A DNA stretch of 64,000 nt, taken from assembly GCF_036507355.1 (NCBI RefSeq), contig NZ_AP027877.1. The stretch is one strand, 5' to 3'. Shown one piece after another: positions 4,237 through 4,255 of the stretch (position 1 is its first letter; each line of letters opens with the position of its first letter). Source of the stretch: Escherichia coli. GTDB lineage: Bacteria > Pseudomonadota > Gammaproteobacteria > Enterobacterales > Enterobacteriaceae. Below the pieces are notes generated by a model. The model saw only the letters and a list, made by a program, of their open reading frames with translations. It was not told the origin of the DNA and did not search any database. Both the position numbers and the translations under genes were made by a program.

Positions 4237-4255
4237 GGGAATGGTAATCATTATT
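4237..4255. promoter_or_regulatory. Fur-box-like operator in the yncE/yncD divergent promoter region
   Basis: gggaatggtaatcattatt matches about 15/19 of the Fur consensus GATAATGATAATCATTATC; flanked by a TonB-dependent receptor gene. Confidence 0.5.

What the first reader, a model, noticed from the sequence alone, without database searches (positions are those of the whole stretch)
4237..4255. Fur-box-like operator between divergent yncE and TonB-dependent receptor yncD
gggaatggtaatcattatt matches most of the 19-bp Fur consensus. It sits in the shared promoter region of a TonB-dependent receptor gene and a secreted beta-propeller gene, consistent with iron-responsive control.
Basis: partly seen in the sequence, partly recalled or inferred. 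Interest (0 to 1): 0.3.

Follow-up and report, generated by a model that had tools for sequence, protein, structure and literature searches.

The report
Known Fur operator of yncE
The 19-base sequence is a genuine, already published binding site for the iron-sensing repressor Fur that switches off the E. coli gene yncE when iron is plentiful; it belongs to yncE rather than to the neighbouring receptor gene, which imports the cofactor PQQ, not iron.

Summary
A Fur matrix I built from 24 experimentally supported K-12 sites, none of them yncE, scores it 19.05 bits. That is the top score of 63,982 positions in the window and exceeds the leave-one-out score of 22 of the 24 training sites; about 0.015 such hits are expected per 64 kb.

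The window is E. coli, and the 19-mer is identical in K-12. Published Fur ChIP-exo and ChIP-seq peaks map onto this spot there, and yncE rises 9- to 280-fold in fur mutants.

The box is the best-conserved 19-mer of the intergenic region in 78 orthologous loci from about 20 enterobacterial genera. It contains a conserved -10-like hexamer (TACCAT/TACTAT), with a conserved TCCACA/T exactly 17 bp upstream, so Fur probably blocks RNA polymerase at the yncE promoter.

yncD is now PqqU, a PQQ importer. It is reported as Fur-independent in MG1655, and only two of nine strains showed a response. The box also persists where pqqU has been lost.

The finding is already known and of low interest. In passing I found a covarying hairpin in the yncE 5' UTR and, next to it, a conserved block complementary to RyhB.

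The parts
4237..4255 (.). Primary Fur box (19-bp imperfect palindrome), the operator of yncE
   Evidence: It scores 19.05 bits and is the top site in the window. It is identical in K-12. The published MG1655 ChIP-exo peak P44 maps to about window 4230-4242 and was bound only under iron-replete conditions. It is the most conserved 19-mer of the intergenic region across 78 orthologs.
4231..4249 (.). Weaker overlapping Fur site shifted by 6 bp, a possible second dimer
   Evidence: It scores 6.8 bits. A 6-bp spacing of overlapping sites is the usual architecture of Fur clusters according to Chen et al. 2007. This is inference only.
4241..4246 (-). Predicted yncE -10 hexamer TACCAT, lying inside the Fur box
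   Evidence: It is part of the best promoter candidate on the minus strand. The hexamer is TACTAT, TACCAT or TATTAT in 77 of 78 orthologs. The transcription start site was not verified.
4264..4269 (-). Predicted yncE -35 hexamer TCCACA
   Evidence: It lies exactly 17 bp upstream of the -10. It reads TCCACA or TCCACT in 70 of 78 orthologs, with invariant spacing.
4205..4224 (-). Conserved stem-loop in the yncE 5' UTR
   Evidence: All 7 base pairs show compensatory changes. 90% of cells are paired, against 36-52% in the slid controls. This implies a transcription start upstream of 4224, which fits the predicted promoter.
4183..4202 (-). Conserved 5' UTR block complementary to RyhB nt 41-59, a candidate pairing site
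   Evidence: The predicted duplex is -20.1 kcal/mol, and the same location is chosen in 77 of 78 orthologs. RyhB activation of yncE is published. The energy alone is not unusual, since 12.7% of random windows do as well.
3091..4152 (-). yncE, the regulated gene (Sec-dependent periplasmic 7-bladed beta-propeller)
   Evidence: ORF list and RefSeq annotation; Pfam YNCE-like beta-propeller.
4394..6496 (+). pqqU (yncD), a TonB-dependent PQQ importer; the divergent neighbour, probably not the target of the box
   Evidence: Annotation; Pfam Plug and TonB-dependent receptor barrel domains; literature.

Best explanation
This is the Fur operator of the yncE promoter.

When iron is sufficient, Fe2+-Fur binds as a dimer to the 19-bp box at 4237-4255. 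A second dimer may bind the overlapping weak site 6 bp away. The box covers the -10 hexamer (TACCAT, 4246-4241) and most of the 17-bp spacer of the yncE promoter, whose -35 is TCCACA (4269-4264). Bound Fur therefore keeps RNA polymerase off the promoter. When iron is scarce, Fur leaves and yncE is transcribed from about 4234.

The transcript carries a conserved 5' hairpin. It is further boosted by the Fur-repressed small RNA RyhB. Together these form a coherent feed-forward loop.

Shown: the sequence match, its conservation, and (from publications) Fur occupancy and Fur-dependent expression. Inferred: the exact promoter hexamers, the transcription start site, the occlusion mechanism and the RyhB pairing site.
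For: - PWM score of 19.05 bits, rank 1 in the window, chance expectation 0.015 per 64 kb.
- The 19-mer is identical in K-12, and the whole 261-bp alignment spanning the intergenic region differs at 2 positions.
- The MG1655 ChIP-exo peak labelled yncE/intergenic was bound only under iron-replete conditions and was also found by Seo et al. It maps 78-90 bp upstream of the ATG, which is +4 to +16 from the box centre. That is the same offset as at gpmA, sufA, ydiE and efeU.
- ChIP-seq in MG1655 and CFT073 shows a peak height of 845 and a delta-fur/wild-type ratio of 147.
- yncE log2FC in delta-fur ranges from 3.1 to 8.1 in the eight strains with a value. YncE protein is overproduced in a fur mutant.
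- A 'Fur box identified in its promoter region' is cited in the literature.
- All 78 orthologous loci with enough upstream sequence, from about 20 genera, carry a 14-22-bit box. In 75 of them it starts 94-107 bp upstream of the ATG; in three it starts at 58-62 bp.
- Mean identity is 0.885 in the box against 0.552 in the rest of the intergenic region.
- The -10 and -35 hexamers are conserved with a fixed 17-bp spacing.
- The 61 bp around the box are present in 5385 of 5426 complete E. coli genomes at 95% identity or more.
Against: - No footprint, EMSA or point mutation of this exact 19-mer was available to me. ChIP resolution is tens of bp.
- The promoter score (6.2) is only about the median of the best score per 300 bp in this window. 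The promoter assignment therefore rests on conservation, and the conservation of the -10 is confounded with conservation of the Fur box itself.
- No experimental transcription start site was retrieved.
- Chen et al. 2007 did not list yncE among clusters above 17 bits with their model, so absolute bit scores depend on the model.
Confidence: 0.93

Rival explanations
1. The box is a truly bidirectional operator. Besides yncE, it represses a distal pqqU promoter that overlaps or precedes it, so PQQ import is also tied to iron status.
For: - yncD/pqqU rose in delta-fur in W3110 (log2FC 2.95, p 2.7e-51) and EC042 (2.02), and the W3110 ChIP-exo peak is assigned to both genes.
- Candidate plus-strand promoters exist with the -10 inside the box (TTGTTA 4226-4231, 17-bp spacer, CATTAT 4249-4254, score 7.0) or just upstream of it (TTCACA 4188-4193, 16-bp spacer, AATCAT 4210-4215, score 6.9).
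- A review lists yncD/yncE among head-to-head pairs that may have been co-purified with MS2-RyhB through overlapping UTRs.
Against: - There was no change in MG1655 (log2FC 0.12), and yncD is listed as a Fur target in only those two of the nine strains.
- Two functional studies state that pqqU is not Fur- or iron-regulated and does not supply iron.
- The -35 of the candidate whose -10 lies in the box is poorly conserved.
- The best-conserved pqqU promoter candidate (TTTCCA 4330-4335, 17-bp spacer, TACCAT 4353-4358) lies about 120 bp from the box.
- The box, hairpin and downstream block are all retained where pqqU is deleted.
Confidence: 0.15
2. It is a chance AT-rich palindrome in an AT-rich intergenic region. 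Fur control of yncE would then be exerted elsewhere or indirectly.
For: - By mismatch count alone, a match with 4 or fewer mismatches is expected 0.2 times per 64 kb.
- A 16.6-bit site inside hrpA has no ChIP-exo peak, so a high PWM score does not guarantee occupancy.
Against: - The score is far above chance, even for sequence with the intergenic region's own composition (0 of 2000 resamples).
- ChIP peaks coincide with it.
- No other site above 7 bits exists in the intergenic region.
- It is conserved across genera whose flanking sequence has diverged to about 55% identity.
Confidence: 0.02
3. The conservation reflects only the yncE core promoter (-10 and spacer), or the site of another regulator, and the resemblance to a Fur box is secondary.
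For: The -10-like hexamer lies inside the box. The strongly conserved CTCCACWTT block upstream is not part of any Fur motif, so it could be a -35 element or another factor's site.
Against: - Conservation extends over the whole palindrome, including the AATAATGA half, which is spacer for the promoter and should be free to vary.
- Variation among orthologs stays within Fur-compatible bases, with scores of 14-22 bits.
- Fur occupancy and more than 100-fold derepression are documented.
Confidence: 0.05

Closest known systems
Classical E. coli Fur boxes overlapping sigma-70 promoters (fhuA, fepA-fes, cirA, sodA, ryhB, yddA)
   Same: It is a 19-bp AT-rich 9-1-9 palindrome with the same information content. 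It has 4 mismatches to the consensus, where the training sites have 3-8. It overlaps the predicted -10 and spacer, and it was bound only under iron-replete conditions. It is very similar to the yddA site (GCTAATGATAACCATTCCC against AATAATGATTACCATTCCC).
   Different: Nothing material. It seems to be a one-strong-site cluster with one weak overlapping site, rather than the 3-12 overlapping sites of many strong clusters in Chen 2007.
Bidirectional Fur operators between divergent iron genes (fepA-fes, fepD-entS, fepB-entC)
   Same: The box sits in a short intergenic region between divergently transcribed genes, one of which encodes a TonB-dependent outer-membrane receptor.
   Different: At the fep/ent loci both divergent genes are iron-uptake genes repressed by Fur. 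Here the receptor imports PQQ, is Fur-independent in MG1655, and can be lost without loss of the box.
Fur plus RyhB dual control of cirA and shiA (repression by Fur, activation by RyhB)
   Same: yncE is repressed by Fur and activated post-transcriptionally by RyhB. A conserved 5' UTR block is complementary to the RyhB core.
   Different: The pairing site and the activation mechanism for yncE have not been mapped. The consensus fold found only the 5' hairpin and no conserved structure that sequesters the Shine-Dalgarno sequence.

Membership tests
Fur box (E. coli Fur operator) | A 19-bp sequence scoring above the range of weak proven sites (about 10 bits) on a matrix built from experimentally proven sites | tested here: met
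   19.05 bits on a 24-site matrix that excludes yncE. Training leave-one-out scores range from 10.1 to 21.2.
Fur box (E. coli Fur operator) | More than chance would give in this sequence | tested here: met
   0.015 hits expected per 64 kb, and 0 of 2000 resamples of the intergenic region reached the score.
Fur box (E. coli Fur operator) | Physical occupancy by Fur, dependent on iron | not testable with these tools
   Published ChIP-exo (MG1655 peak P44, iron-replete only; W3110 peak P54) and ChIP-seq (MG1655, CFT073) on DNA whose box is identical to the window's. No footprint of the exact 19-mer was found.
Fur box (E. coli Fur operator) | The adjacent gene is derepressed in a fur mutant or under low iron | not testable with these tools
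   Published for yncE: log2FC 3.1-8.1 in the eight strains with a value, a 147-fold ratio in CFT073, and protein overproduction. For pqqU: no change in MG1655, and up in only 2 of 9 strains.
Fur box (E. coli Fur operator) | Overlap with the core promoter of the repressed gene | tested here: inconclusive
   The predicted promoter, TCCACA then 17 bp then TACCAT, has its -10 inside the box and is conserved in 70-77 of 78 orthologs. However, its promoter score is unremarkable and no experimental transcription start site was available.
Fur box (E. coli Fur operator) | Conservation at orthologous promoters (phylogenetic footprint) | tested here: met
   All 78 loci with enough upstream sequence carry a 14-22-bit box, at a near-constant distance from the ATG in 75 of them. 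It is the most conserved 19-mer of the intergenic region.
Shared (bidirectional) Fur operator of a divergent iron-uptake gene pair | Both divergent genes are Fur- or iron-responsive and functionally linked to iron | tested here: not met
   pqqU imports PQQ and is reported as Fur-independent. The MG1655 data show no change. The box is retained in loci that lack pqqU.

The most novel reading that the evidence does not exclude
The box may be one element of a conserved, three-layer iron switch on yncE whose RNA parts are undescribed. The layers would be a Fur operator that contains the -10, a covarying 5'-terminal hairpin (4224-4205), and an adjacent conserved block (4202-4183) that is the direct RyhB pairing site missed by CopraRNA.

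In some strains the same palindrome could also gate a distal pqqU promoter. That would link PQQ scavenging to iron limitation.
Probability: 0.3. Interest if true: 0.35.

Novelty: already known. Interest (0 to 1): 0.1.

Why it matters
As a finding it mostly confirms textbook regulation. yncE is a core member of the E. coli Fur regulon, and its Fur box has been cited since the 2003 microarray study.

The useful corrections are two:
- The neighbouring TonB-dependent receptor should not be read as an iron transporter or as a Fur target by proximity. It is the PQQ importer PqqU.
- The box is tied to yncE across the Enterobacteriaceae.

YncE itself still has no known function despite being a strongly iron-regulated periplasmic protein and a vaccine antigen. 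A precise map of its control region (operator, promoter, 5' hairpin and candidate RyhB site) is a modest aid to anyone studying it.

Tried and rejected
- The consensus search with up to 3 mismatches found nothing, because the site has 4 mismatches. I replaced it with a mismatch count and a PWM.
- The built-in promoter scan found no minus-strand promoter at its thresholds. My own weighted scan was needed.
- I first considered TATAAC (4233-4228) as the yncE -10, with the box over the -35 and spacer. I rejected it because its last base and its T1 vary among orthologs, and because a start downstream of it would truncate the covarying hairpin.
- Full-length RNAduplex of RyhB against the UTR gave meaningless long duplexes. 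I redid it with the RyhB core and 30-nt windows.
- An Rfam search of 3900-4700 found nothing.
- Seo et al. 2014 and Baba-Dikwa et al. 2008 are not held in the library. Beauchene 2015 has no supplements held. Chen 2007 does not mention yncE, and neither does the 2023 Fur-regulon paper PMC10219339.
- No paper I searched gave the yncE transcription start site.
- The gene labels in the MG1655 sheet of Gao 2023 Dataset 2 are displaced by one row from P37 onward. I corrected this by checking coordinates against known genes.

Full report
**Observation**

The 19-mer GGGAATGGTAATCATTATT is at 4237-4255 exactly as reported. It lies in the 241-bp region between two divergent ORFs: a 353-aa ORF on the minus strand (3091-4152) and a 700-aa ORF on the plus strand (4394-6496).

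The window is Escherichia coli. A 3.6-kb stretch matches 5413 of 5426 complete genomes, and RefSeq annotates the genes as yncE (7-bladed beta-propeller) and pqqU (TonB-dependent receptor, formerly yncD). K-12 has the same arrangement. Pfam confirms both protein types.

The 19-mer matches the Fur consensus GATAATGATAATCATTATC at 15 of 19 positions. That is why a search allowing 3 mismatches returned nothing. It is the only match with 4 or fewer mismatches in the window. Such a match is expected 0.2 times per 64 kb, so the mismatch count alone is only suggestive.

**Formal matrix scan**

Chen et al. 2007 (PMC2189734) tabulate the K-12 coordinates of footprinted and gel-shifted Fur sites and of strong clusters at known Fur-regulated genes. 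I did the following:
- fetched 24 such regions from NC_000913.3;
- located the best 19-mer within 14 bp of each published coordinate by iterative refinement from the consensus;
- built a symmetric log-odds matrix with a total information of 16.2 bits.

yncE was not in the training set. Real sites have 3 to 8 mismatches to the consensus, so 4 is typical.

The candidate scores 19.05 bits and ranks first of 63,982 positions in the window. It exceeds the leave-one-out score of 22 of the 24 training sites (mean 16.4, minimum 10.1). First-order Markov resamples of the window reach the score 0.015 times per 64 kb. None of 2000 resamples of the AT-rich intergenic region itself reached it. A weaker site (6.8 bits) overlaps at a 6-bp shift (4231-4249). 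That is the spacing Chen et al. describe for adjacent dimers.

**Published binding and expression data**

The alignment spanning the intergenic region differs from K-12 at two positions, and the 19-mer is identical. K-12 data therefore transfer directly.

- In Dataset 2 of Gao et al. 2023 (PMC10164565), the MG1655 sheet has its gene labels displaced by one row from P37 onward. The tonB label is missing, and I verified the shift against known gene coordinates. After correction, peak P44 (1521238-1521250 in the old numbering) is 'yncE, intergenic, iron-replete only, also in Seo et al.'.
- The old-to-new coordinate shift at this locus is 1979 bp. Three training sites that landed at zero offset validate it. 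P44 then lies 78-90 bp upstream of the yncE ATG, at window 4230-4242. That is +4 to +16 bp from the box centre, the same systematic offset seen at gpmA, sufA, ydiE and efeU.
- Beauchene et al. 2015 list yncE among genes bound upstream by Fur.
- Banerjee et al. 2020 report a ChIP peak of 845 and a delta-fur/wild-type ratio of 147 in CFT073, and say the sites are conserved between strains.
- yncE log2 fold-changes in delta-fur are 3.1 in MG1655 and 8.1 in W3110, and 3.6-5.5 in six further strains.
- YncE protein is overproduced in a fur mutant.

The element is therefore already known.

**Phylogenetic footprint**

A scan of one genome per species with the YncE protein returned 80 loci. They come from Escherichia, Citrobacter, Salmonella, Enterobacter, Klebsiella, Raoultella, Kosakonia, Kluyvera, Atlantibacter and others, with protein identity down to 72%.

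All 78 loci with enough upstream sequence carry a 14-22-bit Fur box. In 75 of them it starts 94-107 bp upstream of the ATG; in three it starts at 58-62 bp. In a MAFFT alignment of 78 upstream regions, the box positions average 0.885 identity to the window, against 0.552 for the rest of the intergenic region. The most conserved 19-mer windows all overlap the box. Within E. coli, the 61 bp around the box occur at 95% identity or more in 5385 of 5426 genomes.

**How it probably works**

On the yncE strand, the best sigma-70 candidate is TCCACA (4269-4264), a 17-bp spacer, then TACCAT (4246-4241). Its score is unremarkable (6.2, about the median best score per 300 bp in this window), but conservation supports it:
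- In all 78 orthologs the hexamer at the -10 position is TACTAT (59), TACCAT (9), TATTAT (9) or TGCTAT (1).
- The hexamer exactly 17 bp upstream is TCCACA (45) or TCCACT (25).

The -10 and most of the spacer lie inside the box. The simplest mechanism is therefore classical promoter occlusion by holo-Fur. The predicted start is near 4234.

Independent support for a start upstream of 4224 comes from a stem-loop at 4224-4205 on the yncE strand. All seven of its pairs show compensatory changes, and 90% of cells are paired against 36-52% when the partners are slid. I had first considered TATAAC (4233-4228) as the -10. I rejected it because it varies among orthologs and because a start downstream of it would truncate this hairpin.

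The promoter, the transcription start site and the occlusion step are inferences. I found no experimental start site.

**Does the box also serve the receptor gene?**

The evidence is mostly against.
- YncD is now PqqU, a high-affinity importer of pyrroloquinoline quinone. The structural and functional papers state that it does not support iron acquisition and is neither Fur-regulated nor iron-induced.
- In MG1655 its mRNA is unchanged in delta-fur (log2FC 0.12, not significant).
- Several Citrobacter loci show no pqqU start next to yncE. In the one I examined, C. youngae L012, the upstream gene is a co-directional curA-like oxidoreductase, yet the box, the hairpin and the downstream block all keep their positions relative to yncE.
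- The same holds for E. albertii, where only a 32-aa fragment of pqqU aligned near its start, and for CFT073, where yncD is annotated as a pseudogene.
- The best-conserved plus-strand promoter candidate (TTTCCA 4330-4335, 17-bp spacer, TACCAT 4353-4358) would start near 4365. That places the box at about -119.

Three observations keep a bidirectional role open at low probability:
- pqqU did rise in W3110 (log2FC 2.95) and EC042 (2.02) fur mutants.
- Weak plus-strand promoter candidates overlap or precede the box.
- A review groups yncD/yncE with head-to-head pairs possibly co-purified through overlapping UTRs.

**Comparison and verdict**

The element meets every sequence-level criterion of an E. 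coli Fur box that I could test. Published data supply occupancy and regulation. It fails the test for a shared operator of a divergent iron-uptake pair. It is an already known regulatory site, so interest is low.

**Seen in passing**

- The covarying hairpin has no Rfam family.
- Immediately 3' of it, the conserved block GCGAAGCAUUGUGAAGCAGC (4202-4183) is complementary to RyhB nt 41-59, with a predicted duplex of -20.1 kcal/mol. The equivalent block is the best RyhB partner in 77 of 78 orthologs (median -23 kcal/mol), although 12.7% of random windows reach the E. coli energy.
- RyhB activation of yncE is published: ribosome profiling with a lacZ fusion, and RIL-seq. CopraRNA, however, predicted only about -5 kcal/mol, so the pairing site may be unmapped.
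- Two other PWM hits look incidental. One is a 16.6-bit site inside hrpA. The other is a 12.1-bit site upstream of ansP. Neither has a ChIP-exo peak in the MG1655 list.

Noticed in passing
window 4205-4224 (minus strand, yncE 5' UTR): A 7-bp stem-loop is conserved with compensatory changes at every pair across 30 orthologs from many genera. 90% of cells are paired, against 36-52% in the slid controls. G-U pairs favour the yncE-sense strand. There is no Rfam match, and the function is unknown; it could be an mRNA-stabilising 5' hairpin or part of RyhB control.
   Followed up: partly
window 4183-4202 (minus strand): The conserved 5' UTR block GCGAAGCAUUGUGAAGCAGC is complementary to the RyhB core (nt 41-59, -20.1 kcal/mol). 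The same position is the best RyhB partner in 77 of 78 orthologs. RyhB activation of yncE is published, but the pairing site appears unmapped. The energy alone is not statistically unusual.
   Followed up: partly
window 43286-43304: The second-best Fur PWM hit in the window (GGAAGTGATAATGATTTTT, 16.6 bits) lies inside the hrpA coding sequence and is identical in K-12. The MG1655 ChIP-exo list reports no peak there, so it is probably a non-functional or unoccupied match.
   Followed up: partly
window 1389-1407: A 12.1-bit Fur-like site (AATAATGGTGATAACTATC) lies 72-90 nt upstream of the ansP ATG at 1479. ansP mRNA falls in MG1655 delta-fur (log2FC -1.39), but no ChIP-exo peak is listed. It may be a chance match.
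   Followed up: partly
window ~4500-4536 (inside pqqU): The MG1655 ChIP-exo peak P43 (iron-replete, not in Seo et al.) maps here, 106-142 bp into pqqU. No Fur-like sequence is present (best 3.8 bits). It is possibly a shoulder of the main peak or an artefact.
   Followed up: partly
window 4330-4358 (plus strand): A conserved candidate pqqU promoter: TTTCCA, a 17-bp spacer, then TACCAT, with a predicted start near 4365. The block TTTCATTACCATG is well conserved among orthologs.
   Followed up: no
L012 (Citrobacter youngae) 1-3000; also L009, L010, L013, L017, L019, L021, L025: In several Citrobacter species no pqqU start was found next to yncE. In L012, the only one inspected, the upstream gene is a co-directional curA-like oxidoreductase, which implies loss of pqqU and mcbR there. 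The yncE control region is nevertheless intact.
   Followed up: partly
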